DNA from: Escherichia phage OLB35
Length of the DNA stretch: 64,000 nucleotides
Strand: one strand, 5' to 3'
Sequence record: MH992122.1
The notes below the pieces were generated by a model. It made no database searches. It saw nothing but the letters and a program-made list of their open reading frames with translations, and was not told the DNA's origin. How positions within the stretch are numbered: position 1 is the first letter of the stretch; every line of letters starts with the position of its first letter. A program made the translations under genes and the position numbers. Shown in pieces: positions 1 to 40,443 of the stretch.

Positions 1-2214
1 TTATTTGGCTGCTTCCACAGCCTTCATGAATTTAACGATTTGAGCGACTTGTTCTTTAGAAAGAGTACCACGTCGTCCCATGTAGTCTGACACAATATGA
101 TAATTGGTTTCGAATTCAATAACCATTTTATCATCATTATCGTAAGCATTATCTTTAAGCTTATCGAAAATTTTAGCACACAATTCTAACTTTTTATTCA
201 GTTCTCTGTTAGTAGCACCTGAGAATCGATTCCATCCCCAACGATTATTTACTGTTGAGAGTTTTGCAAAATCTTTACTGATTTCTTTGTTTTTAGAGCT
301 AAAATACTTACTAAGGAAGTTAAGCTCTTCATTACGAGTAATATGATTCAAATAAGGCTGTGCTCTACGACTTGGTGATACATACTCATCATAATCCACT
401 TTATCGATTAGCGTAATATAGTCATTAATTGATTTTTCGAACAAACATTCTACTTCACCAAGTTTACGAACTTTCTTAGCAATCTGTGGACGAACTACAG
501 TGAACTCTTTAATACCTGACAAATCAGCAATACGGGTCAAGAAATTGGAGTCATAGTTCAACCAACCTTTATCTGCGTCAAGACATTCAGCATTAGAACG
601 ATTACGAACTATAGCATAACCTTGGATTTCATCTGCTTCACTTGCCGGAATAAAGAGGTCTTCTGATACCCAAACATCGTTTTCATTCTTAAAGAATCGA
701 TGAGCACTTGGCGATTTAGGACGAGGCTCATTAGTCCGTTTCCTGACTTCAATCCATGGCTTAACGATTTGTAAAAGCTCTGAAGTCTTGTACATGTTAA
801 TGTTGTCGCCATCAAAGATAACTTTAAGGCGTTCCAGAAGTTTCATTGCATCTTCGTCTGTAGGGTCAACGAATAGTACACTTTTACCAAAACCGCGTGG
901 AACTTTACCAGTTAATTTAACCTCGTCTTTAGACATTTCAATTGAATTAAGAGCTCGCATTAATGGAACGCGTCCCTTAACATCGTCAATAACAATTTCA
1001 ACATTTTTAATATTAATGCCAATCAGACTGTTAATTGAAATAGTTGCCGATGAGCTACCACTTTCACGAATACGACGAAGACGAGGGGATTCAACTATAT
1101 CGTATACGACGCCGAGATTACACCACTCAGGCCCCATTTTAAAACGTTTGTACAACTCAGAATAAGTTAGTTGTTCTTTAGAGTATTTCAGTGATTCAAT
1201 ATTAGACCCAGCCTTTTCCATGTATTTACGAGCGGTATAGCCAAGAGAATCAATTTCACGGAACACATGACGTGGGTATTTACAATCAATCCATTTCTTA
1301 GAATCTTCAGCGAACAATTTAGCATCGATTTCTGCAACACGTTTATGGATATTTGCTACCGTACGTTTATCAAATGACAATGCTTCACGAGACGGGGCTA
1401 CATCTAGTTCACCCATAGGGAATTTAATATAAGCTGTAGTGCATCGCGTCATCATCCATGTTTGTTCTTTAATAACACTTCCGATTGGATATACAATACC
1501 GCCGTAAACAGCCATGATATTACCACGTTCACCCCATGGAGCTTCCTTGGCCAAATATACATCGTCAAATTCAGGGAAGTATTTAATATCTTTAACACCA
1601 CGAACTTCTGCAATATCGCCGAGAGGACGCATAACATAAGCAATTTCGGATGCAAACTTTTCAAAATCTTCCGGGTTAACCGGTACAACTACTTCTACAC
1701 CCGTACGGTCATCAGGACCCATCTTATCTACAAAGGTCGGCTTAATCTGTGGACCTGTGTCATCTTGGTAGATTACGTAACCACGAACTTCACCATTATG
1801 ATAAGACGTAAGGTTAAACGTATCAGTATATGCTAATGGAGCTTTAGAGCCGAGTCCGAATCCACCAATGAAATCGTTACTCGATGTTTTAGTTGAAGCA
1901 AAATATGAGTTATAAATTCCTGGCTCTTCGTCATTACCACGAATAGTGAAATCGCTCATACCAGGACCAAAGTCTCGAACTACAAAACGTGGGTCTAAAC
2001 GACCTGGAGCCTGAACAATAAACTTATCAGTGCAACCATTAAGAATTTGCCCATCGATACAGTTTGTAATTAATTCACGTACACAAGCCAATTCTTTGTT
2101 TGTATAAAGGTCATTAGACAAAATCTTATAAACTTTGCTATTGCCTTGAATAGTGAATGCTGTGCTCTTACCGCCTGAACCAATAATCGTTTCTTTAGCC
2201 GTTTCAATAATCAT
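1..2214 (-). CDS. rIIA: rIIA membrane-associated protein
   Basis: 737-aa ORF; N-terminus MIIETAKETIIGSGGKS... closely matches T4 rIIA; ATG at 2212-2214, stop at 1-3. Confidence 0.93.
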   Translation of the reverse strand: MIIETAKETIIGSGGKSTAFTIQGNSKVYKILSNDLYTNKELACVRELITNCIDGQILNGCTDKFIVQAPGRLDPRFVVRDFGPGMSDFTIRGNDEEPGIYNSYFASTKTSSNDFIGGFGLGSKAPLAYTDTFNLTSYHNGEVRGYVIYQDDTGPQIKPTFVDKMGPDDRTGVEVVVPVNPEDFEKFASEIAYVMRPLGDIAEVRGVKDIKYFPEFDDVYLAKEAPWGERGNIMAVYGGIVYPIGSVIKEQTWMMTRCTTAYIKFPMGELDVAPSREALSFDKRTVANIHKRVAEIDAKLFAEDSKKWIDCKYPRHVFREIDSLGYTARKYMEKAGSNIESLKYSKEQLTYSELYKRFKMGPEWCNLGVVYDIVESPRLRRIRESGSSSATISINSLIGINIKNVEIVIDDVKGRVPLMRALNSIEMSKDEVKLTGKVPRGFGKSVLFVDPTDEDAMKLLERLKVIFDGDNINMYKTSELLQIVKPWIEVRKRTNEPRPKSPSAHRFFKNENDVWVSEDLFIPASEADEIQGYAIVRNRSNAECLDADKGWLNYDSNFLTRIADLSGIKEFTVVRPQIAKKVRKLGEVECLFEKSINDYITLIDKVDYDEYVSPSRRAQPYLNHITRNEELNFLSKYFSSKNKEISKDFAKLSTVNNRWGWNRFSGATNRELNKKLELCAKIFDKLKDNAYDNDDKMVIEFETNYHIVSDYMGRRGTLSKEQVAQIVKFMKAVEAAK

Positions 2215-2519: not shown

Positions 2520-3620
2520 TTACGCTGTGAAGATTTTATCCCACATCGCAACAACTGCATCTCGGTTATACTTCTTCCATACTGCTTCAGCACGTTTAAC
2601 TCGAGCTTCGTATGTGTCAGTGAATTCTAATACAGCTTTTGTGTAAAGCGCAACTACTTCTTTCTTAGGAGTAGAGGAATCAATTTCTACACGCACAGTA
2701 TCTGGGTCGTATTCGAATGTCGCATGAGGATAATCCTTAAAAACTAACTGAATTACAGGGACACCTTTAGAGATGGCTTCAATAGAACTATTCTCTACCG
2801 TACCCGTGTCAGGACACGTATTGATAAGTGCTTTAGCTGTTTTAAGACGTTCCATGATTTCACTGTGTGGAGCATCAATAATAACAGGATACTTAGCCGG
2901 TGGTGCCCATTTACTAGGACAATAACCAATACCATTTTCGCCTAGTGCTTTAATCGCTTCAAGAGCAACATCAGTACGACGCATTTTAGTGTCATAACGT
3001 TGTGCACTAATAATCAGATCAGTCGCCGGAAGAATTTCAGGTTTCTCATTCAAACAAATAACCGGATAATCTTCAGCTTCAAACAACGGATTTGCTCGCC
3101 AATAATCATAATCAATTTTGTCAGTCAGACCTGAAGTCATATAACAATATTTGCGTTCAAATTCACGGAAGGCTTTAGTAGGAGCATAACTCTTACCACC
3201 GTTCTTATGAATTTGAATAGTCTGGTCCCAAATTTGAACAATGCCACGAGATACAGGTTCAAATGGTGTTGCCATAAAATTCTTATGAACTTTAGAAAGA
3301 CCTGCGTCTTTAATTGCCTGAACGGTTAGTTTGGTCGGTTCCATTGTAACAACGAAATCGTACTCATTAATGCCGGCTAGTTCAACAATCTTACGAGCCA
3401 TAGTATAACTCATACCTAGACTGAATTTAGTCAGATGACCAACAGGATGATGATTAACCTTCCAATCACCAAATGTGTCATTATCAAAGCCGATATAATC
3501 AATATCAGCACCGATGGACACAAGATATTTCAACACATTTAAATGTACTGCTTCAAGACCACCTTGTACACGTTCTGGGTTAAATGGGACTGCGCGAGAT
3601 GGGATAAACATAACTTTCAT
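2520..3620 (-). CDS. glycosyltransferase (GT-B/GT1-like), candidate DNA hmC glycosyl(arabinosyl)transferase
   Basis: 366-aa ORF; C-terminal ...TGTVENSSIEAISKGVPVI... resembles GT1 nucleotide-sugar binding motif; lies between rIIA.1 and 39 where T4 has gene 60/mobA. Confidence 0.55.
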   Translation of the reverse strand: MKVMFIPSRAVPFNPERVQGGLEAVHLNVLKYLVSIGADIDYIGFDNDTFGDWKVNHHPVGHLTKFSLGMSYTMARKIVELAGINEYDFVVTMEPTKLTVQAIKDAGLSKVHKNFMATPFEPVSRGIVQIWDQTIQIHKNGGKSYAPTKAFREFERKYCYMTSGLTDKIDYDYWRANPLFEAEDYPVICLNEKPEILPATDLIISAQRYDTKMRRTDVALEAIKALGENGIGYCPSKWAPPAKYPVIIDAPHSEIMERLKTAKALINTCPDTGTVENSSIEAISKGVPVIQLVFKDYPHATFEYDPDTVRVEIDSSTPKKEVVALYTKAVLEFTDTYEARVKRAEAVWKKYNRDAVVAMWDKIFTA

Positions 3621-3629
3621 AATTAAGCC

Positions 3630-3664
3630 TTATTAAAATTAAAATGAAGCTCCCGAAGGAGCTT
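3630..3664 (-). terminator. intrinsic terminator after gene 39
   Basis: hairpin aagctcc-cgaa-ggagctt (3647-3664), followed on minus-strand RNA by cauuuuaauuuu. Confidence 0.5.
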
Positions 3665-3678
3665 AGGACATCTATCAA

Positions 3679-5499
3679 TTAACCAAGCATCCAATCTTTA
3701 CGGAGTTCAGGGTCGTTACCCATGAGCATTTCAAAGAGTTCTTTCCAATTTTCAGGAAGTTTAACTACGTCGTACACAGGGTTCTGAATCATTTCTTTAT
3801 ATTCATCCCGCTGAAGTGAGCCCAATCCCTTTATGTATCGAATACTATGCTTAGGCAGTGTATCTTTAACTTCTTCATACTCAGCTACAGTATAAAACCA
3901 TTTTTGAGTTTTACCAATTTGTGCAATAATTACAGGCGTTTTAACAAAGCGAATACGTCCTTGTTCAAACAATTCAGGCCAATTACTAAAGAAAGCAAGC
4001 AAAGCCGGATAGATACTTCCAAGGCCGTCATGATCGGCATCGGTCATAATTGCAATATTACGATAGTTCGTATTCTCTGCTTTTTCACCAAGAATAAGAC
4101 CCGTGATAGCACAGATATCAAAGAGCTCTTTGTTCTTCATCATATCAGCATATGACATACCCCAGCTATTCATCACCTTACCACGTAATGGGAATCCACC
4201 GTGTAGTTCACGGTCACGAACATCAATGAGATATCCAATTGCCGAATCACCTTCTGTTAAGAACAATGTCGTATCTGCATCTTTACCACATTGGTTAGCT
4301 TTAATATGCTTATGAACCTTAGCTTTAGTTGCCTTTTTAGCTGCTTTAGTTTCTGCAGCCTTTTCTGCTGCCAATTTACGAGCTAATGCTGCTTCAACAA
4401 TAGGCATAATCAAGGCTTCGTTTTTAAGAAGTGCCTGAGCAATTTTCTTAGCATCTAATTGGATATGATTACGAATATCACCATATGTTGACGTTAAACG
4501 TTCTTTAGTCTGAGAATCAAAACGCATGTTGCTCATGTCTCTAATAAACATCAACATTGTGAGACATTCTTTAACACGAGCTTTAGTGACTTCAATACCC
4601 TTATATTTCTTTTTAATACCCGGCAAAAGATGTTCGCAGATATCGTCCATTACACATTCAACATGATGTCCACCGTTTTTAGTATGGATGTTATTCACAT
4701 AAGTTAAATGACGGAAGCCATCTGGTGATGTTGTGAATGCTATAGAGACTTTATCATTTTCTTGAATGATGTTATCTTCACCAAATTGTTTAGCAAATCG
4801 TTTAAAATTGCCATCAACCTTTTTACCATTAAATGTGAACTTGATATCAGGATAAACGACTGCCAATGTTTGAAGTCGGTCTAAAGTAATATCTAAATAA
4901 ATTTGAGATAAATTATGCTCTTCAAATGAAGTGAAATCAGGAGTGAAGATTACTTTAGTGCCTTTACCTTTAGATTTCTTAGAAGACCATGATTTGTTTT
5001 CCATTCCGTTTGAACAGTTAACAGTGATTTCATTTTCGCCATCTGACGTGATGCCTGTAAACAACGTAGAGAAGATATTAGTTAAACTACTCCCGACGCC
5101 GTTCATACCACCAGTCTTGCGTTCAGAGTCATCGCCAAAGTTACCACCGGCCTTTGGAATAGTCCAGGCTGCTACAGGCCCAGGAATTTGTTCACCTGTT
5201 TGGTCGGTAACTAAACCTTGAGGAATACCACGTCCGTTATCTTCCACCGAAACTTGATTATTTTTAATTTGCACATCAATTTTATTTGCAAACTTAAACG
5301 ATGTACGAATAGCTTCATCAACCGAGTTGTCAATAATCTCATCGATTAATTTAACCAGACCAGGAACATATTCAACTTGTTGATATTTACCAAACAAAAA
5401 ACGCTCGTGGGCTTCTTTAGCAGAAGAACCAATATACATACCACTACGTTTCTTAATATGTTCTACATCTGACAATACCTTAATTTCATTTTTAATCAT
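3679..5499 (-). CDS. 39: DNA topoisomerase II large subunit, gp39 fused with gp60 region
   Basis: 606-aa ORF; MIKNEIKVLSDVEHIKKRSGMYIGSS... near-identical to T4 gp39; single continuous ORF of fused 39+60 length. Confidence 0.95.
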   Translation of the reverse strand: MIKNEIKVLSDVEHIKKRSGMYIGSSAKEAHERFLFGKYQQVEYVPGLVKLIDEIIDNSVDEAIRTSFKFANKIDVQIKNNQVSVEDNGRGIPQGLVTDQTGEQIPGPVAAWTIPKAGGNFGDDSERKTGGMNGVGSSLTNIFSTLFTGITSDGENEITVNCSNGMENKSWSSKKSKGKGTKVIFTPDFTSFEEHNLSQIYLDITLDRLQTLAVVYPDIKFTFNGKKVDGNFKRFAKQFGEDNIIQENDKVSIAFTTSPDGFRHLTYVNNIHTKNGGHHVECVMDDICEHLLPGIKKKYKGIEVTKARVKECLTMLMFIRDMSNMRFDSQTKERLTSTYGDIRNHIQLDAKKIAQALLKNEALIMPIVEAALARKLAAEKAAETKAAKKATKAKVHKHIKANQCGKDADTTLFLTEGDSAIGYLIDVRDRELHGGFPLRGKVMNSWGMSYADMMKNKELFDICAITGLILGEKAENTNYRNIAIMTDADHDGLGSIYPALLAFFSNWPELFEQGRIRFVKTPVIIAQIGKTQKWFYTVAEYEEVKDTLPKHSIRYIKGLGSLQRDEYKEMIQNPVYDVVKLPENWKELFEMLMGNDPELRKDWMLG

Positions 5500-5540
5500 G
5501 TTGTCTCCTCGTTATGAAGGTATTCTATCATCCGAAATCT

Positions 5541-5564
5541 AAAGCAAAAAGGGCCGAAGCCCTT
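5541..5564 (-). terminator. intrinsic terminator
   Basis: hairpin aagggc-cgaa-gccctt (5549-5564), then uuuuugcuuu on minus-strand RNA; overlaps stop codon of upstream ORF. Confidence 0.5.
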
Positions 5565-5988
5565 ATTTAAATTTAATTTTCTGAAGTGCATCAATTGCAG
5601 CCAAACGCCCTTGTTCACTTTTAACTGTAATGACCACATCGCCTGATACGATCACCGAACCATCAACAAATTCTATAGAGCCTTTTTTGAAATCGATAGC
5701 TGTATCTGGTTCCTGAACTTCTTCAAAGAATTTAAATTCTGCACCATAAAGCAGAATATCACCTTGCATACTATGAATAGTTCGGCCATAATCGCCTACG
5801 GCTTCTACAGCAATCATTGAAACACCGTAACCAATCATCTCTTCCACAATAAAATCTTTGGACAATAAAGTAGTATGCAGATTAGTATTAAGACGTTTAC
5901 CAGTCGTATTAAGAATTCTCAAGAAATTATCTTCTTGACCTTTGATAATACGATATTTCTTACCAACTTCAAAACCTTTAAAAGCCAT
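5563..5988 (-). CDS. hypothetical protein
   Basis: 141-aa ORF with ATG; operon position downstream of small zinc-ribbon ORF. Confidence 0.55.
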   Translation of the reverse strand: MAFKGFEVGKKYRIIKGQEDNFLRILNTTGKRLNTNLHTTLLSKDFIVEEMIGYGVSMIAVEAVGDYGRTIHSMQGDILLYGAEFKFFEEVQEPDTAIDFKKGSIEFVDGSVIVSGDVVITVKSEQGRLAAIDALQKIKFK

Positions 5989-5990
5989 AA

Positions 5991-6170
5991 TTAACCCTTT
6001 TTAAGTAAGTCGTAAAAACCACCGTTCACATGTTTAGGAGCAGAAACCCGACGAGTAGACAGACGATGACATTCAGGGCAAACATCGTTTTCTCGTTCAG
6101 AAATCCTTTTAATTTTTTCATATTCATGACCACAATCTTCAGATTGGCATTTATAGTCGTATAACGGCAT
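5991..6170 (-). CDS. small zinc-ribbon protein (CxxC...CxxC), below the ORF-track size cutoff
   Basis: hand translation MPLYDYKCQSEDCGHEYEKIKRISERENDVCPECHRL...; ATG at 6168-6170, stop at 5991-5993. Confidence 0.4.
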   Translation of the reverse strand: MPLYDYKCQSEDCGHEYEKIKRISERENDVCPECHRLSTRRVSAPKHVNGGFYDLLKKG

Positions 6171-6172
6171 TA

Positions 6173-6583
6173 TTATTCCTTAAAATGTGCTTTCAACATT
6201 TGATACAAAGACCATGCCTGGTCGTTATTTTTGATAGTAATCGTCATCACCGGAAATTCAGACAATTCATCAAGTTCTCCAGAGTCTTGCTCTTCAGACG
6301 CTTGATATGGATTTCCAACTTCGTCAAAGAACTCTGCTTCATTCGTGGAGAGCCAGATAAAGTTTTCATCAAGAGTATCACCACCTGTCGCGTATCCAAC
6401 CATGCCAGTAGATGTCACAATTTTAGTAGGACGACCAAGATGGTCAACATCTAATACTTTAAATGGTTTCATGCCAAGACGTCGTGCATAAATCCCATTA
6501 TCGGTGTGGTCCTTAATAAACTCTTCTTGGGCACGTTTATCTTTAAATTGGTACCACGAGTTAACGTGGAATTTATTAGCCAT
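6173..6583 (-). CDS. hypothetical protein
   Basis: ORF 6173-6601; internal ATG at 6581-6583 overlaps upstream stop (TAATG), consistent with coupling. Confidence 0.5.
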
Positions 6584-6810
6584 TAGTAAGTTTCCTTCCA
6601 ATAAGTTGTACCGTTTTCAGTGATTTCACGGAAGATACCGTAGATAGGCATTTCATCACCGAGTTTTTCGTAAACGTAAACCACTTCGGTGTAGCATAAA
6701 AATCCGGTCCAGCTTTTCTGTACAACAACTAAATCAGGATTAAACAGAACATCTTCAAACTCATCGATGTTTGAATCAGTAGTTACGTTTTTAATGATTT
6801 GACGTTTCAT
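6583..6810 (-). CDS. hypothetical protein
   Basis: ORF 6583-6855 trimmed to ATG at 6808-6810 preceded by AGAGGAG; the listed longer start would include the promoter. Confidence 0.45.
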
Positions 6811-6838
6811 AATATTCTCCTCTTGTTTTGATAGGTCT

Positions 6839-6868
6839 ATAGTATCATAGACCATAGTTGTTGTACAT
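6839..6868 (-). promoter_or_regulatory. T4-type early promoter (-35 TGTACA / -10 TACTAT)
   Basis: motif gataggtctatagtatca shared with other early promoters in the window. Confidence 0.4.
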
Positions 6869-7392
6869 CATTTTAGCAAAATAAAATCAACTTGTTCTGC
6901 CAATGAACGTCTAAACATTAATTGACAACTTCCGAGGATGAAATCAGGTGCTTCATAGACCGCGATGTAGTATCCTTTAGCTTTCAAGAGTTCAACATCC
7001 ACCTGGTCATCAAACCATGCATAAACCGCGTCAACGCTTTCAAATCCAAAATAGAACCCTTGAGCCCAATCTTCACTCAATTCAAATGTGTACTCAATTC
7101 TACGGTATCTTAAGATATTTTGTTCAAGAAGTTTGTCTTCATTTACTGTAGGACGATTAGGGACATTATAGTTGTCGCCGTGATGGTAGAAGTTACCTGA
7201 GATTATTCCATGTTTATCAAGGAACTCCCATGTTTCTTCAGAGTTGTCAGTGCCAGACCAACCGTAAGGTGAGCGTGGTTCTTTATTCCAAGAGGTTTCC
7301 CAAATTCTGACGGCTTTACCGTCTTCGATAGCAATTCCTGGTAATGATTCACGTTGAGTACAAAAACTACGTTCTACGCGGTAAACTAACAT
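6868..7392 (-). CDS. hypothetical protein
   Basis: 174-aa ORF; ATG at 7390-7392 with AGGAG RBS inside hairpin arm. Confidence 0.55.
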   Translation of the reverse strand: MLVYRVERSFCTQRESLPGIAIEDGKAVRIWETSWNKEPRSPYGWSGTDNSEETWEFLDKHGIISGNFYHHGDNYNVPNRPTVNEDKLLEQNILRYRRIEYTFELSEDWAQGFYFGFESVDAVYAWFDDQVDVELLKAKGYYIAVYEAPDFILGSCQLMFRRSLAEQVDFILLK

Positions 7393-7396
7393 ATTA

Positions 7397-7447
7397 TTCT
7401 CCTCTGGTTGATATGGTTATAATATCAAAACCAGAGGAGAAGTAAAC
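7397..7447 (-). promoter_or_regulatory. early promoter embedded in RBS-sequestering stem-loop (PeSL-like cassette)
   Basis: -35 GTTTAC (7442-7447), 17-bp spacer, -10 TATTAT (7419-7424); inverted repeat ttctcctctggtt (7397-7409)/aaccagaggagaa (7429-7441) contains the SD. Confidence 0.5.
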
Positions 7448-7451
7448 AACT

Positions 7452-7871
7452 TTATGCGAAAGCAGCCGGGCTATATTTTTTAATTTGGAATTCAGGAACT
7501 ACCATGAACTGTCCAGCGAAAACGATGTTATAAAGCTTAACACCATCTTCTACCCAACGGTCGCTAATAAAACCAGCAATTTGCTTAGTTTTCCATGGCG
7601 TTCCATCAGTTGCCGCAGCAATAGTGAATTCATGGTCTTTTTCAACAGAAACTGATCTGCATAGTCCCCATTTGAACGCTTTTTCTTCCGGTTCAATGAA
7701 TTGGCCTGAGACATAGCCAATGTTACCATCGGCGTCACGAACTTTAACTTCATTACGTCCAAAAACCGGATCGCTCACAGAAAGAACTTCAACCAACTTA
7801 CCAGCAACTTTAGAGCGAGAAGCATCTGATACGTGTACATAATCACCAATAGAGAGATTTGCAATATTCAT
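7452..7871 (-). CDS. hypothetical protein, paralog family member 1
   Basis: 139-aa ORF; C-terminal ...WVEDGVKLYNIVFAGQF.VVP shared with two neighbouring ORFs. Confidence 0.6.
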   Translation of the reverse strand: MNIANLSIGDYVHVSDASRSKVAGKLVEVLSVSDPVFGRNEVKVRDADGNIGYVSGQFIEPEEKAFKWGLCRSVSVEKDHEFTIAAATDGTPWKTKQIAGFISDRWVEDGVKLYNIVFAGQFMVVPEFQIKKYSPAAFA

Positions 7872-7880
7872 AATAATTCC

Positions 7881-8366
7881 TTAAGCTTTACGAGGAGACA
7901 CATAACGAGTGATTTCGGATTCTTTAACAACTCTGAAGTCACCTAAGAATACGATATTGTATAACTTTTCACCATCTTCAACCCATTGGTCACTAATGAA
8001 GCCGCACATAGTATCAGTTTTGCTTGGATAACCGTATTCATCGATGAAGTCAAATTCTTTATCAGTCTGGAATTCAACGCCTTTGCAAAGGGCCCATTTG
8101 AACTGTACATTATGCTCTGTGGATTCAACTTTTTCTCTTGAAGCAAAAGCACTACTCACAGGCGTTTCCAAGAACTTTGCACGAACATAAGCAAATTTGG
8201 TTTCCTGTGTCCCAAAACTAGGAATAATACGAACTTTTACCTCAGAATCTTCATCTTTAACGCCTTCTTTAAGTTGAATACTTACAACTTCGACCAATTT
8301 TCCTGCGGCTTTAGAACGAGATTTGTTAGATACGCGAACGATTTCACCAATAATACCAAGATTCAT
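7881..8366 (-). CDS. hypothetical protein, paralog family member 2
   Basis: ORF 7881-8429 trimmed to ATG at 8364-8366 (MNLGIIGEIVRV...); ...WVEDGEKLYNIVFLGDF.VV. Confidence 0.5.
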   Translation of the reverse strand: MNLGIIGEIVRVSNKSRSKAAGKLVEVVSIQLKEGVKDEDSEVKVRIIPSFGTQETKFAYVRAKFLETPVSSAFASREKVESTEHNVQFKWALCKGVEFQTDKEFDFIDEYGYPSKTDTMCGFISDQWVEDGEKLYNIVFLGDFRVVKESEITRYVSPRKA

Positions 8367-8428
8367 AATTTCTCTCTCTTTGTTTAAATTGAATTCATTA
8401 TACTCCATCCATCCTTGGATATACAACA

Positions 8429-8923
8429 TTAATTAAGGATATTAACCGCAGCACTACGTGGAACTACACTAAAATCACCTGCATGAACAACGTTCAGAAG
8501 TTCAACACCGTCTTCAATCCACTGGTCAGTTACCCATCCATTTACTGGACCTGCGAACGGACGTCGAATTGAAACATATTTACACAGCAAATCAGTAGGC
8601 TCAATAGGCTTAATCAGAGTACCGTACATACAAGCGATATCCATATCAATACAGATGTCTTTAACGGGTTCTACTTCTTCAATCAACAGTTCAAAGTCTG
8701 TGCTTGGAAGGGCGGTAGTAGAAATTGTACCATATGAATTTTTAATTTCTAAGAATAACCAAGGGCCTTCAGCTTGTTTGATGAAGTTAACAATAGTGAA
8801 ACTATTGCCTTGAGTGGCACCTAAAATTTCACAAAACTTTTCGTAAGCTCGCACTGAAGCACTGTACCAGTTGATTTGTTTTTCGTCTTTCAGGATGTAA
8901 GTAGCCGTAGTATTGATATTCAT
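8429..8923 (-). CDS. hypothetical protein, paralog family member 3
   Basis: 164-aa ORF; ...WIEDGVELLNVVHAGDFSVVP. Confidence 0.55.
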   Translation of the reverse strand: MNINTTATYILKDEKQINWYSASVRAYEKFCEILGATQGNSFTIVNFIKQAEGPWLFLEIKNSYGTISTTALPSTDFELLIEEVEPVKDICIDMDIACMYGTLIKPIEPTDLLCKYVSIRRPFAGPVNGWVTDQWIEDGVELLNVVHAGDFSVVPRSAAVNILN

Positions 8924-8954
8924 AATGTTTTTCCTGTTTGGTTAAGATAGAAAG

Positions 8955-8984
8955 ATTATACTCCAACCATCCTTGGTTGTAAAC
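8955..8984 (-). promoter_or_regulatory. T4-type early promoter
   Basis: -35 GTTTAC (8979-8984), spacer aaccaaggatggttggag, -10 TATAAT (8955-8960); same sequence recurs at 50869 and 51889. Confidence 0.5.
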
Positions 8985-8989
8985 TGATT

Positions 8990-9667
8990 TTATCGCTGTT
9001 TTACACTTAACGGGTCAGGATTCTCAGGGACATCTTCAAGGCCAAGCGCATAACGCTGAGCATATTTTAACATCAAAATATCTTTAGCACAATCATGAAT
9101 ACTATCATGGGCAACGAATCCTTTTAGCGTACCCATCGGTAATGGACACATACTTAATCCTCGTGTCAACGAGTAAGCTTCGATTGCCGTACGAATATCG
9201 CGTTGAGCCCAGAATTTAACCGGTTCTAATTTATCAGTATCAATCTCTGGTTCAAGAACACCTTCATCACGATAGAGATCACGAATCAAATCGACCAAGA
9301 TCGGGAAGTCAAAGCTCATACCACGGCACCACATCTGTGATTTCCATTGGTCAACTTTATTAGCTCGACAATAATCTAAAAAGATTTTAATGCCTTCAAG
9401 CGTAGTGACATCGTCTTCAGACGGAGCCAGGTTTTTACGTGCTTCTGCTGATTGTTCTTTCCACCATTTCATAGTGGATTTAGCGAAAACTCGCTTCCCT
9501 TTTTGAGAAGCTAAATTAAATTTAATTCGCTTACCTCGTTGAACAAGTTCTTCAAATGATTCAACAACTTCAGGGTCGGAATTATATGCAATAACCGCAA
9601 GGTCAATAACAGCCGCTTTTGATGTATTGCCGAATGTTTCAAAATCTATAATAACATCAGTGCTCAT
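8990..9667 (-). CDS. dexA: exonuclease A (DnaQ-like 3'-5' exonuclease)
   Basis: 225-aa ORF MSTDVIIDFETFGN...; matches T4 DexA; ATG at 9665-9667. Confidence 0.88.
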   Translation of the reverse strand: MSTDVIIDFETFGNTSKAAVIDLAVIAYNSDPEVVESFEELVQRGKRIKFNLASQKGKRVFAKSTMKWWKEQSAEARKNLAPSEDDVTTLEGIKIFLDYCRANKVDQWKSQMWCRGMSFDFPILVDLIRDLYRDEGVLEPEIDTDKLEPVKFWAQRDIRTAIEAYSLTRGLSMCPLPMGTLKGFVAHDSIHDCAKDILMLKYAQRYALGLEDVPENPDPLSVKQR

Positions 9668-9676
9668 AATTTTCTC

Positions 9677-10990
9677 TCAAATAAAATGGACGTCAAAACG
9701 ACCACGAGTTGTGCCGACATACAATAACTGTTTAGCTAATTCTGAATCAGCGTAATGGATGCACGGTGTATAAACAAAGGCCGTGTCAACAGACATACCC
9801 TGAGCCTTATGGAAGGTTGATACTGGTAGTGCCTTCACCTTAGTGAACATACGTTTAGCATCCCAGAATTCGCTCCATGGAGCTTTACCACCTTTATTCC
9901 AAAATTTGTATGTTTCTGCGGTCTTAGCCAAAAACAAATTGAATTTATAAAGCTCTTCTTCAGAAGAAATAACCTTTATATCTTCGCGGATGTATTCTTC
10001 ATCATCCCCATATGTTTCTACTGTAAGATTCCAGTATCGTATCATATACTCGCCAGAAACACCACGTGCTTTAACGAATGTAGACGTTTCTACAGCATCT
10101 CGAATACGAACGAATTGCCCGTTATTGAAAAGCATTTCGGTCATATTTTTACCATCTAGCTTATATGTCTTAGTAAATGGCTCTTGTAGAACAATGACTT
10201 CGTCTTTAATAAATGGCTTTTCTGTTTCAAGAAGTTTTCGGCGAATAATTGAATTTAACTTGTCCACCGACTTATTTGTGAATGCCATCATTCGATTTTC
10301 GAAAAGGTCTTCAGGAGTTTTAACGACGTTAAAATAGTTCATCATATACGATTTAAGGTCTGTATATCCGTGAACACCATGTCCATCAACTACTTTATCG
10401 TAAATCCATTTGCCATTACGAATATCAGTCGCAACATCAATAATTGGTGCATTGCTACGTTTAACTTCTGTAAGGTTGCATTGCACGAAGTCTTTGTGAG
10501 TGAAGAAAGGACTTAGATACGCAGTTGATTCGCCTGGGTCTACTGGTCGAATCTGACATCGGTCACCAATTCCAATTACTGTACACCATTTAGGGATACT
10601 AGCTAACATTATTTTAAACAGAGAACGGTCACACATTGATGCTTCATCAAATAATAGTACACGACACAAGGCTAAGTCGGGGACCTTTTTCTGTTCAAAT
10701 AATACGTTTTCTTCGTATGTAGTTGGGTTGATTTTAAGAATGCTATGAATGGTTGATGCTTCTTGACCCGCAAGTTTGCTTAGAACCTTTTTAGCAGCAT
10801 GTGTAGGGGCTGCTAAAATAATACCTGATTCTCCGGAAGAAATAAGGGCTTCAACGATGAATCTAGTAAGGGTTGTTTTACCTGTACCAGCAGGCCCATT
10901 AATAGTTACGTGATGTTTCTTTTCTTTAATAGCTTTCATAACAACGTTGAAGGCGTTTTTCTGGCCTTCGGTCAAATCATCAAATGTCAT
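9677..10990 (-). CDS. dda: Dda DNA helicase (SF1)
   Basis: 437-aa ORF MTFDDLTEGQKNAFNVVMKAIKEKKHHVTINGPAGTGKTT... near-identical to T4 Dda. Confidence 0.97.
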   Translation of the reverse strand: MTFDDLTEGQKNAFNVVMKAIKEKKHHVTINGPAGTGKTTLTRFIVEALISSGESGIILAAPTHAAKKVLSKLAGQEASTIHSILKINPTTYEENVLFEQKKVPDLALCRVLLFDEASMCDRSLFKIMLASIPKWCTVIGIGDRCQIRPVDPGESTAYLSPFFTHKDFVQCNLTEVKRSNAPIIDVATDIRNGKWIYDKVVDGHGVHGYTDLKSYMMNYFNVVKTPEDLFENRMMAFTNKSVDKLNSIIRRKLLETEKPFIKDEVIVLQEPFTKTYKLDGKNMTEMLFNNGQFVRIRDAVETSTFVKARGVSGEYMIRYWNLTVETYGDDEEYIREDIKVISSEEELYKFNLFLAKTAETYKFWNKGGKAPWSEFWDAKRMFTKVKALPVSTFHKAQGMSVDTAFVYTPCIHYADSELAKQLLYVGTTRGRFDVHFI

Positions 10991-11298
10991 CGTAAAGTCC
11001 CTGCAATTGGAATACTAACAATACGGCCTGTGTCCAGAATTCGTTGATACAATCTTTGCGTCTCCGCATCTAGTTTAATGTGTTTCATTTCAAGCTTATT
11101 AAACCAGAACTTACGCGGAGTTTCGACCATTCTTAGAACTCCCATTTTTAAATCTGTTTTATACTGTGTTTTCAAAGTATCGAAAACTTTATCTGCAATA
11201 TCCTTTCTAAAAAATACTGCAGGACGATGTTCATCAAGTGGAACTGGGACAGTAAATCCTTCCATATCTCGATAAACTATTGCATATACATAAACCAT
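10987..11298 (-). CDS. dda.1: Dda.1-like hypothetical protein
   Basis: 103-aa ORF overlapping dda start by 4 nt; T4 synteny. Confidence 0.55.
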   Translation of the reverse strand: MVYVYAIVYRDMEGFTVPVPLDEHRPAVFFRKDIADKVFDTLKTQYKTDLKMGVLRMVETPRKFWFNKLEMKHIKLDAETQRLYQRILDTGRIVSIPIAGTLR

Positions 11299-11443
11299 AA
11301 TTAACCTTTAATCAGTTGGAATAATGATGCGCTAAGTGGTAGGCCACGTTTCAATTTTAATTTACCAATGAAACCAATCTTTTCAAAACGTTGCAGACCT
11401 TGGATAACTTTATCATATGTATCGAAAAGCGATTCAGCGTCAG

Positions 11444-12049
11444 TTAATTTAGTTTTAGTTTTCCAGTCAGAGCCTTTAAAAGAAGAACGTTGAGTTTAGT
11501 AAGTTCATGTCCTTCCGCTTGATGTGAGCCGTTAATGCGTGCTTTCAAAGCAACAATTCTAAGTTTAGATTCGTTAGATAAAGGTTGATTTTTCATCATG
11601 TTCGCCATATGCTTAACACGATTTTCACGTTTTGCTCGGATTTTTAAAATAGTACCATAAACCTTTTTGATTTGGGCCCATTTCTTCTCGTCGAGATTAA
11701 GTTTCTCTACTTTACGGGCAGAAGGATTAGCGATACGTCTTGCAATGGCATCACGTTTCTCAATAAGTTCTTCTAATGTTAAATCAGAACGAGCCGTGTT
11801 ATATTTTTTCTTAACTGGGATAACATTACCTTTAATGTAGCCGATATTGTTATCAAAACGTTCTAAGGATAATTTCTCACCTTCAACAGAGTTATTGAAA
11901 GATTCACCTGAGTAAGCGCAGACCTTTTGATCAAGAATGTTTTTAAGGTAGTTAAAGTCTAAGTTAAAATCCTTAGAGCGTCTCTTCGCAGAAGCTCTGG
12001 TGTGGTCAAGACGACGATTTATTTTGTTAATTTTATTATTTGATAACAT
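11444..12049 (-). CDS. hypothetical protein in srd position
   Basis: 201-aa ORF between dda.1 and modA-like gene; own early promoter upstream; identity with T4 Srd not verified. Confidence 0.45.
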   Translation of the reverse strand: MLSNNKINKINRRLDHTRASAKRRSKDFNLDFNYLKNILDQKVCAYSGESFNNSVEGEKLSLERFDNNIGYIKGNVIPVKKKYNTARSDLTLEELIEKRDAIARRIANPSARKVEKLNLDEKKWAQIKKVYGTILKIRAKRENRVKHMANMMKNQPLSNESKLRIVALKARINGSHQAEGHELTKLNVLLLKALTGKLKLN

Positions 12050-38927: not shown

Positions 38928-39156
38928 TACACGCTTCAGCCATTTTAAGAATAGAGCCAGGAGTATCGTTGTCCATTATATTAAAGCTAAATTCAATAGC
39001 CCAGTCGGTACAGACATGAACGGCTTTAACTTCATTGCCTTCAACGCGTAATGGCTCAATCCAATACTTGATAGTGTTCTCGAATCCATCATCATCTTTA
39101 ACGTCTATTTCAACTTCAAGCCCAAGCCCAGCATTGTTAAATTCATCTAAAGTCAT
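38899..39156 (-). CDS. hypothetical protein (46.2 position)
   Basis: 85-aa acidic ORF. Confidence 0.45.
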   Translation of the reverse strand: MTLDEFNNAGLGLEVEIDVKDDDGFENTIKYWIEPLRVEGNEVKAVHVCTDWAIEFSFNIMDNDTPGSILKMAEACIEDAYNDED

Positions 39157-40172
39157 TGTGTTGCCTCAATATAAAGTTCGTTGGAATATTTGACCAGCGC
39201 TTCTCTGTCTTCGTCTGAGATATCCGGAATCGCGTCAATATATTCTTTAATGATATCTTGAAGTGATTTAATCTCGATTTCCTGGTCGTCATCAGATTCA
39301 ACACTGTTATCAACTTTAGAAACCATACGAAGAGAGTGAACTACTTTTTCAAGTTCAGATTCAAACTTAGTCAACTCTGAATCAATTTCTGATACTATAA
39401 CACGTACGGCTAGATTAGTATAATCAGAATAATTAATTTTGCCTTTAAACGGATAAGTGATTCGTCGATGCCATGTCGTTTCATTGGGAATAAATTCCAT
39501 ACGTTCAACAACAGTGTCAAATACCCAGAATCCTCGCGGATCGTTCTCATCACCTGCAGTAAGGGTCCATGGTGTCCCAATATATTTGACGTTAGCAGCT
39601 TCAGAGATTGTGTGGAAGTGGCCAGACCAGACTTGTTTATAGGTCTTTAAGAAATCAGGTTCAAGCCCATGAGACTTCATTCCTTTATAGAAATAAAAGC
39701 CGTTCAGTTCCCAGTGCCCAACACAGTACGCTGCGGAAGAAGTCTTGATGTGCTCTAAGATTTCACCTGTATTTTCTTCACACATCCACGGAACGATATC
39801 GATCAGACATCCGTCAAAATCTACAGTAGTTGGATGTTCGTAAATAGTAAAGTTTTCAAATTGAGTTAACAATTCAGAAACAGTGTTAGGTGTTATTGTA
39901 TTCTTAAACGCCATGTCATGGTTTCCTATCGTGACATGAACGTGAATGCCTGCCTTAGAAATCATATCAACTATTTCACGATTGAATTCCATCGTACGAT
40001 GTGTAATTGCTTTACGGACGTCAAACCAATCACCGTACTGAATCCAAGTTTTAATACCGTGTTTCTTAGAGTATTCAATTGCTTGACGAATACCATCACG
40101 TTGAATATCTTGAACCCATGGGTCGTCCTGTTTAACGCCGATATGGAAGTCACCTAAATGTAAAATTTTCAT
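39153..40172 (-). CDS. 47: recombination endonuclease subunit gp47 (Mre11/SbcD-like)
   Basis: ORF trimmed to ATG at 40170-40172 (MKILHLGDFHIG...), 339 aa as in T4. Confidence 0.95.
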   Translation of the reverse strand: MKILHLGDFHIGVKQDDPWVQDIQRDGIRQAIEYSKKHGIKTWIQYGDWFDVRKAITHRTMEFNREIVDMISKAGIHVHVTIGNHDMAFKNTITPNTVSELLTQFENFTIYEHPTTVDFDGCLIDIVPWMCEENTGEILEHIKTSSAAYCVGHWELNGFYFYKGMKSHGLEPDFLKTYKQVWSGHFHTISEAANVKYIGTPWTLTAGDENDPRGFWVFDTVVERMEFIPNETTWHRRITYPFKGKINYSDYTNLAVRVIVSEIDSELTKFESELEKVVHSLRMVSKVDNSVESDDDQEIEIKSLQDIIKEYIDAIPDISDEDREALVKYSNELYIEATQ

Positions 40173-40233
40173 AAGTCTAACGCCGTTATCGCGATGCAAA
40201 TTAAAACCACAGAAATAAATAAAAAAGGAAGCA

Positions 40234-40443
40234 CTAGGCTTCCTTTCCAATTAATACACCGTACAGAGGCTCATTTGAACTTTTAAATCGAATTGGCTTG
40301 TACGTAATAGTTCCTTCGGCTTTAGCTTTATCATAAGACTCTTTAAAACGTCTCATTCTTTCTGCTTTGCCTTTACGGATTTTATCGAAATTTTCAGAAG
40401 TCGGGATGTTCGTCATGCATAAGCACCTCTCAGAAAAAGCCAC
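40234..40443 (-). CDS. hypothetical small protein
   Basis: 69-aa ORF; occupies the region where T4 has alpha-gt. Confidence 0.4.
   Translation of the reverse strand: MAFSERCLCMTNIPTSENFDKIRKGKAERMRRFKESYDKAKAEGTITYKPIRFKSSNEPLYGVLIGKEA

What the first reader, a model, noticed from the sequence alone, without database searches (positions are those of the whole stretch)
7452..8923. Tandem triplication of a small-protein family upstream of dexA
Three adjacent genes (139, ~161 and 164 aa) share a conserved C-terminal block W[VI]EDG[VE][KE]L[YL]N[IV]V[FH].G[QD]F.VV and a related N-terminal SRSK.AGKLVEV segment; two have their own early promoters. Such paralogue arrays in T-even early regions often encode host-takeover or anti-defence factors.
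Basis: seen in the sequence. Interest (0 to 1): 0.5.

Follow-up and report, generated by a model that had tools for sequence, protein, structure and literature searches.

The report
MotB / MotB.1 early-gene cluster
The three adjacent small genes are the already described motB.1, motB and second motB copy of an RB69-like T4-type phage, early host-takeover proteins that share one C-terminal domain, so the finding is real but ordinary.

Summary
Three adjacent minus-strand genes (164, 161 and 139 aa; 8429-8923, 7881-8366, 7452-7871) share a homologous C-terminal domain (BLASTP E 2e-31 to 7e-10; profile-profile E 3e-32).

They are not a simple triplication. The 161-aa gene is the orthologue of T4 motB (58% identity). 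The 139-aa gene is an old, conserved motB paralogue (RB69 ORF010c). The 164-aa gene is motB.1: an unrelated SH3/LSm-like N-terminal domain fused to the MotB-type C-terminal domain. The SRSK.AGKLVEV segment occurs in only two of the three. The genes lie downstream of dexA in the direction of transcription, not upstream.

The window is a Mosigvirus, 98.7% identical to Shigella phage Shf125875. The arrangement "two motB plus one motB.1" in RB69 was published in 2021 (PMC7827196). T4 MotB is a toxic, non-specific DNA-binding early protein that co-purifies with H-NS/StpA.

What I add:
- The shared domain is acidic to neutral.
- The T4 and RB69 reference genomes carry single-base insertions that truncate or split motB.1.

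Novelty: already known. Interest: low.

The parts
8429..8923 (-). motB.1-type gene, 164 aa. It has an SH3/LSm-like N-terminal domain (res 1-85), a disordered linker carrying the motif DMDIACMYGTLIKPIE (res 86-107), and a MotB-type C-terminal domain (res 108-164).
   Evidence: PHROG 2333 at E 1e-81 over the full length; Pfam motB matches residues 84-158 only, 34 bits. 37% identity to T4 MotB.1. AF2 mean pLDDT 79, two beta domains. dN/dS 0.05-0.28.
8955..8983 (-). T4-type early promoter in front of motB.1 (TTTACA-17-TATAAT).
   Evidence: 11 of 12 consensus positions. It lies in the 66-nt gap between dexA and motB.1.
8376..8423 (-). Diverged copy of the motB.1 promoter/leader region in front of motB. 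The -10 TATAAT is at 8402-8397 and the -35 is weak (TGTATA/TTGTAT).
   Evidence: Direct repeat D2, 75% identity over 48 nt with 8934-8981; sequence read. Not reported by the consensus scan.
7881..8366 (-). motB orthologue, 161 aa. It has a KOW/SH3-like N-terminal domain (res 9-67), a disordered linker (res 70-86) and a C-terminal domain (res 96-156).
   Evidence: Pfam motB 182 bits, profile positions 5-157 of 162. 58% identity to T4 MotB, E 1e-60. AF2 mean pLDDT 79.5, C-terminal domain above 90. dN/dS 0.12-0.36.
7452..7871 (-). Second motB copy (RB69 ORF010c type), 139 aa. Same two domains with a shorter linker. It starts 9 nt after the motB stop, so it is probably co-transcribed with motB.
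   Evidence: 44% identity to the 161-aa protein and 40% to T4 MotB. PHROG 1671 at E 4e-52. Homologues 83-94% identical in many Mosigvirus contigs. dN/dS 0.03-0.17.
7393..7451 (-). Intergenic cassette that closes the array. A strong hairpin spans a promoter-like site (TTTACT-16-TATTAT, 7446-7419), and its 3' arm holds the Shine-Dalgarno sequence of motB.2.
   Evidence: Promoter scan. RNA fold -24.6 kcal/mol, z -5.8, 0 of 200 shuffles as stable.
8990..9667 (-). dexA (exonuclease A), the gene transcribed before the array. Context only.
   Evidence: ORF of 225 aa; annotated as exonuclease DexA in Shf125875 and RB69.
6868..7392 (-). motB.2 homologue (174 aa), the gene after the array. It does not carry the shared domain. 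Context only.
   Evidence: PHROG 1106, no Pfam hit. Annotated 'similar to RB69 motB.2'. No hit to the C-terminal-domain HMM.

Best explanation
Identity (shown). The locus is the motB.1 - motB - motB-paralogue cluster of a Mosigvirus (RB69-like T4-type phage). All three proteins end in the same ~57-75-residue beta-barrel domain. Two carry a KOW-type N-terminal barrel with the basic SRSKxAGK motif. The third carries an unrelated SH3/LSm-like N-terminal domain. All three genes are intact, conserved and under purifying selection.

Expression (inferred). The genes are expressed early: motB.1 from a near-consensus early promoter, motB from a diverged copy of it, and the paralogue by read-through from motB.

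Function (inferred from T4 MotB, not shown here). The 161-aa protein, and probably its 139-aa paralogue, bind double-stranded DNA without sequence specificity. They alter how the host nucleoid proteins H-NS and StpA sit on DNA. This de-represses some host genes, is toxic to the cell and raises burst size about two-fold.

Division of labour (my inference). The basic KOW-type N-terminal domain supplies nucleic-acid contact. The shared, acidic-to-neutral, highly conserved C-terminal barrel is a common partner-binding or self-association module. MotB.1 brings that same module together with an LSm-like, possibly RNA-directed, N-terminal domain.
For: - Identity of the window: 98.7% DNA identity over the whole locus to Shigella phage Shf125875. 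That record annotates the genes as 'similar to RB69 motB.1', 'RB69 motB' and 'RB69ORF010c; similar to motB'.
- Family membership: Pfam PF17613 above threshold for all three; PHROG 1671 and 2333.
- Orthology: 58% identity of the 161-aa protein to T4 MotB.
- Conserved adjacency: motB.1 lies immediately before motB in T4 as well.
- Shared domain: C-terminal domains homologous and N-terminal domains not.
- Structure: AF2 gives two confident beta domains joined by a disordered linker in both modelled proteins.
- Selection: dN/dS 0.03-0.36.
- Function of T4 MotB: toxicity, non-specific DNA binding, H-NS/StpA co-purification and a 2-fold burst-size effect (PMC6070864); altered H-NS footprints and 75 host genes up-regulated (PMC7827196).
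- Charge: the N-terminal domain of the window's MotB has pI 9.05, while the three C-terminal domains have pI 4.65-7.1.
- Modularity: the MotB.1-type C-terminal domain is 70-86% identical across proteins whose N-terminal domains differ completely.
Against: - No experiment exists for the Mosigvirus proteins.
- The window's MotB is acidic overall (pI 5.6, net charge -2), whereas T4 MotB is basic (pI 9.2, net +6). Strong non-specific DNA binding may therefore not transfer.
- The roles of MotB.1 and of the 139-aa paralogue are unknown. T4 motB.1 deletion had no phenotype and no effect in an RNA reporter assay (PMC12152347).
- The assignment of DNA binding to the N-terminal domain and partner binding to the C-terminal domain rests only on charge and conservation.
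- The second promoter has a poor -35 hexamer and was not called by the scan.
Confidence: 0.75

Rival explanations
1. A recent tandem triplication of one small gene, with each copy now diverging.
For: The three genes are adjacent, on the same strand and similar in size, and share the C-terminal block. The promoter/leader region is duplicated in front of two of them.
Against: - The N-terminal domain of the 164-aa protein is unrelated to the KOW-type domain of the other two (hhalign probability 2%) and belongs to a different PHROG.
- The 139-aa clade branches outside all canonical MotB orthologues of several genera.
- Intragenomic DNA similarity is limited to short stretches of 72-89% identity.
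- motB.1 and motB are already separate genes in T4.
Confidence: 0.07
2. The proteins are anti-defence factors. The conserved C-terminal barrel binds and blocks a host immune protein, and the different N-terminal domains are accessory.
For: They are early, non-essential genes in a plastic genome region. There are several paralogues and shuffled architectures. The C-terminal domain is strongly conserved. T4 motB and motB.1 mutants have mild or no phenotype on laboratory hosts (PMC6070864, PMC12152347).
Against: No paper found links MotB or MotB.1 to a defence system. The only experimental data point to DNA and H-NS. H-NS silencing of foreign DNA could itself be regarded as a defence, so the two readings overlap.
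Confidence: 0.12
3. The 139-aa copy or the 164-aa gene is a decaying, non-functional remnant.
For: The 139-aa protein lacks about 22 linker residues compared with MotB. The RB69 and T4 reference records show motB.1 split or truncated.
Against: - Both are intact here and in every other Mosigvirus examined.
- dN/dS is 0.03-0.17 for the 139-aa gene and 0.05-0.28 for the 164-aa gene.
- One 139-aa protein cluster is seen on 126 contigs.
- The reference interruptions are single-base insertions absent from all other records listed or aligned.
Confidence: 0.03

Closest known systems
T4 MotB (Pfam PF17613, PHROG 1671); Patterson-West et al. 2018 and 2021
   Same: The 161-aa protein is 58% identical over the full length. 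It has the same two-domain layout, the same SRSKAAGKLVEVVSIQLK motif and the same position between dexA and cef, and motB.1 precedes it. The 139-aa protein is 40% identical with the same layout.
   Different: - The window's MotB is acidic overall (pI 5.6 against 9.2 for T4).
- Here motB is followed by a second copy that T4 lacks.
- motB.2 lies after the array here, not before it as in T4.
- My AF2 model gives an SH3-like C-terminal domain, whereas the papers predicted an OB-fold from HHpred.
T4 MotB.1 / PHROG 2333, a member of the GoF-MotB.1-Frd.2 LSm-like family (Kim et al. 2025, PMC12152347)
   Same: The 164-aa protein matches PHROG 2333 end to end and is 37% identical to T4 MotB.1. It lies immediately before motB. 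Its N-terminal domain is a five-stranded beta domain with helices, as described for that family.
   Different: - It has a 20-residue insert (DMDIACMYGTLIKPIE motif) between the domains that T4 lacks.
- It carries the complete MotB-type C-terminal domain. The T4 reference annotation (119 aa) stops inside that domain because of one extra G.
RB69 locus (motB.1, 29-aa ORF, motB, ORF010c), as listed in PMC7827196
   Same: Same genus, same gene order and same two motB copies.
   Different: In the RB69 reference, motB.1 is split into 132 aa plus 29 aa by two extra T residues. These are absent from the window and from the other Mosigviruses aligned. In the window the gene is one intact 164-aa ORF.
Tudor / chromo / PWWP / KOW small beta-barrels (SH3-like fold), e.g. 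the 53BP1 tandem Tudor domain and Spt5 KOW domains
   Different: There is no detectable sequence relationship (PDB profile search empty). Methyl-lysine cage residues were not examined. The resemblance is in fold only.

Membership tests
MotB (Pfam PF17613) | Whole-protein score above the Pfam gathering cut-off (25 bits) | tested here: met
   182, 82.4 and 34.4 bits for the 161-, 139- and 164-aa proteins.
MotB (Pfam PF17613) | Full-length match: KOW-like N-terminal domain with the SRSKxAGK motif plus the C-terminal domain | tested here: met
   Met for the 161-aa protein (profile positions 5-157 of 162) and the 139-aa protein (PHROG 1671 positions 2-166; alignment). Not met for the 164-aa protein, which matches only profile positions 78-152 and is therefore filed under MotB.1.
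MotB (Pfam PF17613) | Position in the dexA-cef early region, preceded by motB.1 | tested here: met
   Gene order here is dexA, motB.1, motB, motB copy, motB.2, cef. In T4 it is dexA, motB.2, motB.1, motB, cef.
MotB (Pfam PF17613) | Non-specific DNA binding, co-purification with H-NS/StpA, and toxicity on expression | not testable with these tools
   Known only for T4 MotB (PMC6070864, PMC7827196). The window's orthologue is much less basic.
MotB.1 (PHROG 2333; LSm-like family of PMC12152347) | Full-length profile match and similarity to T4 MotB.1 | tested here: met
   PHROG 2333 at E 1.1e-81, residues 1-164. BLASTP to T4 MotB.1 at E 2e-27.
MotB.1 (PHROG 2333; LSm-like family of PMC12152347) | N-terminal bent five-stranded antiparallel beta-sheet (LSm/SH3-like) | tested here: inconclusive
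OB-fold (cold-shock-like), as predicted for the MotB C-terminal domain in PMC7827196 | Five-stranded barrel with the helix between strands 3 and 4, and structural neighbours that are OB-folds | tested here: not met
Tudor / royal-family readers | Aromatic cage that binds methylated lysine or arginine | not tested

The most novel reading that the evidence does not exclude
The shared C-terminal barrel is not the DNA-binding part. It is a portable targeting or partner-binding module, confined to T4-like phages, that is recombined with at least four kinds of N-terminal region:
- a KOW-like domain;
- an LSm/SH3-like domain;
- the DxDxAxMYGTLxKP motif followed by an unrelated domain;
- a longer form of 241-252 aa with additional N-terminal sequence.

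On this reading the phage delivers different nucleic-acid-binding heads to one common host or phage partner, for example H-NS/StpA filaments. The published T4 MotB.1 experiments, done with a 119-aa form that lacks most of this module, would then have missed its activity.
Probability: 0.25. Interest if true: 0.5.

Novelty: already known. Interest (0 to 1): 0.15.

Why it matters
As a genome feature it adds nothing new. MotB and MotB.1 are named families, and the RB69-type "two motB plus motB.1" arrangement is published.

The side results are useful to people working on T4 early proteins.
- The complete MotB.1 is 143 aa in T4 and 164 aa here, and it carries a whole MotB-type C-terminal domain. 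The 119-aa form in the T4 reference and the "29-aa peptide" of RB69 are products of single-base insertions in those reference records.
- The shared domain looks SH3/Tudor-like and is not basic. This shifts the likely DNA-binding role to the KOW-type N-terminal domain. It also suggests a partner-binding role for the shared domain, which can be tested with domain constructs.

Tried and rejected
- PDB sequence searches with the 161-aa protein and with a C-terminal-domain profile found nothing usable.
- An HMM scan of the whole window for further copies of the domain found only the three known ones. A weak hit at 39156-40250 (E 0.009) was treated as chance.
- An exhaustive profile search of 1.84 billion representative proteins gave only 28 clusters. 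Two long hits (P0273, P0276) are repeat proteins matched by many weak stretches and were rejected as false positives. The domain therefore has no detectable cellular relatives.
- hhalign of N-terminal against C-terminal domains tested whether the C-terminal barrel is an internal duplication of the KOW barrel. There was no signal.
- BLASTP of the 164-aa protein against the window's GoF and ORF005c gave no significant similarity. This matches the literature statement that the LSm-like family is visible only by deep or structural comparison.
- An Rfam scan of 5000-12000 on both strands gave only a sub-threshold Y_RNA match inside the motB.1 coding sequence (26 bits against a gathering score of 38), rejected as chance.
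- The pseudogene reading was rejected on dN/dS.

Full report
**What is there.** Between 7452 and 8923 the minus strand carries three closely packed ORFs. They encode proteins of 164 aa (8429-8923), 161 aa (7881-8366) and 139 aa (7452-7871). The mechanical ORF of the middle gene runs up to 8429, but its upstream part overlaps a promoter-like sequence. The ATG at 8366 has a GAGAGA-type ribosome-binding site like that of T4 motB. The flanking genes are dexA (8990-9667) and dda (9677-10990) on one side, and a motB.2 homologue (6868-7392), cef and goF on the other. All are on the minus strand, so the array is downstream of dexA in the direction of transcription, not upstream.

**Is the similarity real?** Yes.
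- The 139- and 161-aa proteins align over their whole length (44% identity, E 2e-31).
- Each aligns with the C-terminal part of the 164-aa protein (E 2e-11 and 7e-10).
- With family alignments, the C-terminal domains of the two groups match at 99.9% probability, E 3e-32, over 57 columns.
- The N-terminal domains do not match (probability 2%).
The SRSK.AGKLVEV segment is present in only two.
- An HMM of the shared domain finds no further copy in the six-frame translation of the window.

**Identity.** The locus is 98.7% identical to Shigella phage Shf125875 and related Mosigvirus genomes. At least 151 phage records contain 80% or more of it. The Shf125875 record labels the genes "similar to RB69 motB.1", "RB69 motB" and "RB69ORF010c; similar to motB".
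- Pfam motB (PF17613) is passed by all three. It is full-length for the 161-aa protein (182 bits), matches in two stretches for the 139-aa protein (82 bits), and covers only the C-terminal part of the 164-aa protein (34 bits).
- PHROGs puts the first two in "MotB-like transcriptional regulator" (phrog_1671) and the third in phrog_2333.
- The 161-aa protein is 58% identical to T4 MotB and the 139-aa protein 40%.
- The 164-aa protein is 37% identical to T4 MotB.1.
- The T4 gene order is dexA, motB.2, motB.1, motB, cef. The motB.1-motB pair is therefore conserved. The second motB copy is extra, and motB.2 sits on the other side.

**Already published.** Patterson-West et al. 2021 (PMC7827196) grouped MotB homologues into those with the MotB N-terminal domain and those that share only the C-terminal domain (the MotB.1 group). 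They stated that RB69 has two motB copies, one motB.1 and a 29-aa peptide. Kim et al. 2025 (PMC12152347) showed that the N-terminal domains of MotB.1, GoF and Frd.2 have a common LSm/SH3-like predicted fold. So the finding is a known family in a known arrangement.

**Are these real genes, and how old is the duplication?** Nei-Gojobori estimates were made for the window against four or five other Mosigviruses. They give dN/dS of 0.05-0.28 for motB.1, 0.12-0.36 for motB and 0.03-0.17 for the 139-aa copy. All three are therefore under purifying selection. The 139-aa protein family is 83-94% identical across many contigs. In a neighbour-joining tree the 139-aa clade, together with two longer intermediates, branches outside all canonical MotB orthologues from several groups of phages. 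The duplication is thus old, or was followed by fast change, and is not a recent tandem event. Within the genome, DNA similarity between the copies is limited to short stretches of 72-89% identity.

**Structure.** AlphaFold2 with family alignments gave mean pLDDT of 79 for the 164-aa protein and 79.5 for the 161-aa protein. Each model has two beta-rich domains joined by a linker with pLDDT below 50. The pTM of about 0.49 means the relative orientation of the domains is not defined. In both C-terminal domains the strand order is five antiparallel strands with a short helical turn between strands 4 and 5. This is the SH3-like arrangement. An OB-fold has its helix between strands 3 and 4.

The caveats are that these are predictions and that the tool does not report which domain was aligned. 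A Foldseek search of viral models finds only MotB-family proteins of T4-like phages with confidence.

**How restricted is the domain?** A profile of the three C-terminal domains was searched against 1.84 billion representative proteins. It found 28 clusters, two of which are repeat-protein artefacts. The rest are proteins of 43-251 aa. The members read in full are mostly a KOW-like N-terminal domain plus this C-terminal domain. Those that carry source names are all from T4-like phages.

Among homologues of the 164-aa protein, the C-terminal 57 residues stay 70-86% identical while the N-terminal part changes completely. The forms seen are LSm-like (143-169 aa), a DxDxAxMYGTLxKP motif followed by another domain (160-183 aa), longer forms with additional N-terminal sequence (241-252 aa), and KOW-type (147-149 aa). 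The family is therefore modular.

**Likely function.** By orthology with T4 MotB, the 161-aa protein is expected to be an early, non-essential DNA-binding protein. T4 MotB changes H-NS/StpA-DNA complexes, is toxic when over-produced and raises burst size (PMC6070864; PMC7827196). This is inferred, not shown.

One reservation concerns charge. T4 MotB is basic (pI 9.2, net +6). The window's orthologue is acidic overall (pI 5.6); only its N-terminal domain is basic (pI 9.05). All three C-terminal domains are acidic to neutral (pI 4.65-7.1). From this and the extreme conservation of the C-terminal domain, I infer that the KOW-type N-terminal domain makes the nucleic-acid contacts. I also infer that the shared barrel binds a partner or mediates self-association. 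For MotB.1 and the 139-aa copy no function is known. T4 motB.1 mutants had no phenotype.

**Expression signals.**
- A near-consensus early promoter (TTTACA-17-TATAAT, 8983-8955) precedes motB.1.
- A 48-nt copy of that region, 75% identical, precedes motB. It has a perfect -10 and a poor -35.
- The 139-aa gene follows motB after 9 nt and has no promoter of its own.

**Side observations.**
- T4 reference: it has one extra G in motB.1 (gattGgaaga). This ends the ORF at 119 aa, and the next frame encodes EDGVELLNVVHAGEYSVVPRSAVVAILN. Every other T4-named record listed, and RB55 and RB59, has 250 nt where the reference has 251. T4T and MT984581 annotate a 143-aa protein. That 143-aa sequence is on 256 contigs.
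- RB69 reference: it has two extra T residues that split motB.1 into 132 aa plus the "29-aa peptide".
- Kim et al. 2025 describe MotB.1 as 13.8 kDa, which is the truncated form.
- The intergenic region after the array folds into a strong hairpin (-24.6 kcal/mol, z -5.8). It encloses a promoter-like site and pairs with the motB.2 ribosome-binding site. This recalls the promoter-stem-loop cassettes described for T4-type phages (PMC4122927).

**Verdict.** The feature is already known and of low interest as a discovery. It yields some useful corrections for specialists.

Noticed in passing
L002 (T4 NC_000866.4) about 1915-2010, minus strand; compare window 8432-8530: The T4 reference has one extra G in motB.1 (gattGgaaga), which truncates it to 119 aa. 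Every other T4-named record listed, and RB55 and RB59, lacks that base, and T4T and MT984581 annotate a 143-aa protein with the complete MotB-type C-terminal domain. Published MotB.1 work describes the 13.8-kDa (119-aa) form.
   Followed up: yes
L005 (RB69 NC_004928.1) 3377-3873, minus strand: The RB69 reference splits motB.1 into 132 aa plus a 29-aa ORF. The cause is two extra T residues (ccgTttcgc, gacggTtgttg) that are absent from the window and the two other Mosigviruses aligned. This explains the '29-aa peptide' category of PMC7827196.
   Followed up: yes
window 7385-7460, minus strand: A strong hairpin (-24.6 kcal/mol, z -5.8) lies between the 139-aa gene and motB.2. Its loop holds the -10 of a promoter-like site (TTTACT-16-TATTAT) and its 3' arm holds the motB.2 Shine-Dalgarno sequence. 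Read-through transcripts would have the ribosome-binding site sequestered, while transcripts started inside the hairpin would not. It resembles the PeSL promoter-stem-loop cassettes of T4-type phages.
   Followed up: partly
window 8602-8647 (residues 93-108 of the 164-aa protein); also P0029, P0030, P0037, P0038, P0065, P0088: The short motif D[IM]D[IVL]A[CS]MYGTL[IV]KP[IL]E recurs in MotB.1-family proteins. It lies either in the linker before the C-terminal domain or at the extreme N-terminus. It is absent from T4 MotB.1 and is predicted disordered (pLDDT below 50). It may be a short linear interaction motif.
   Followed up: partly
window 5563-5988 and 6173-6601, minus strand: Two GoF-family (phrog_622) genes sit close to the array: goF itself and an extra paralogue (RB69 ORF005c type). 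The extra paralogue also gives a weak hit to the MotB.1 N-terminal profile (phrog_2333, E 3.6e-4). This region therefore holds three proteins of the LSm-like family as well as three with the MotB C-terminal domain.
   Followed up: partly
window 7881-8366 compared with L002 1354-1842: The Mosigvirus MotB orthologue is acidic (pI 5.6, net charge -2), whereas T4 MotB is basic (pI 9.2, net +6). Its non-specific DNA affinity may therefore differ between genera.
   Followed up: no
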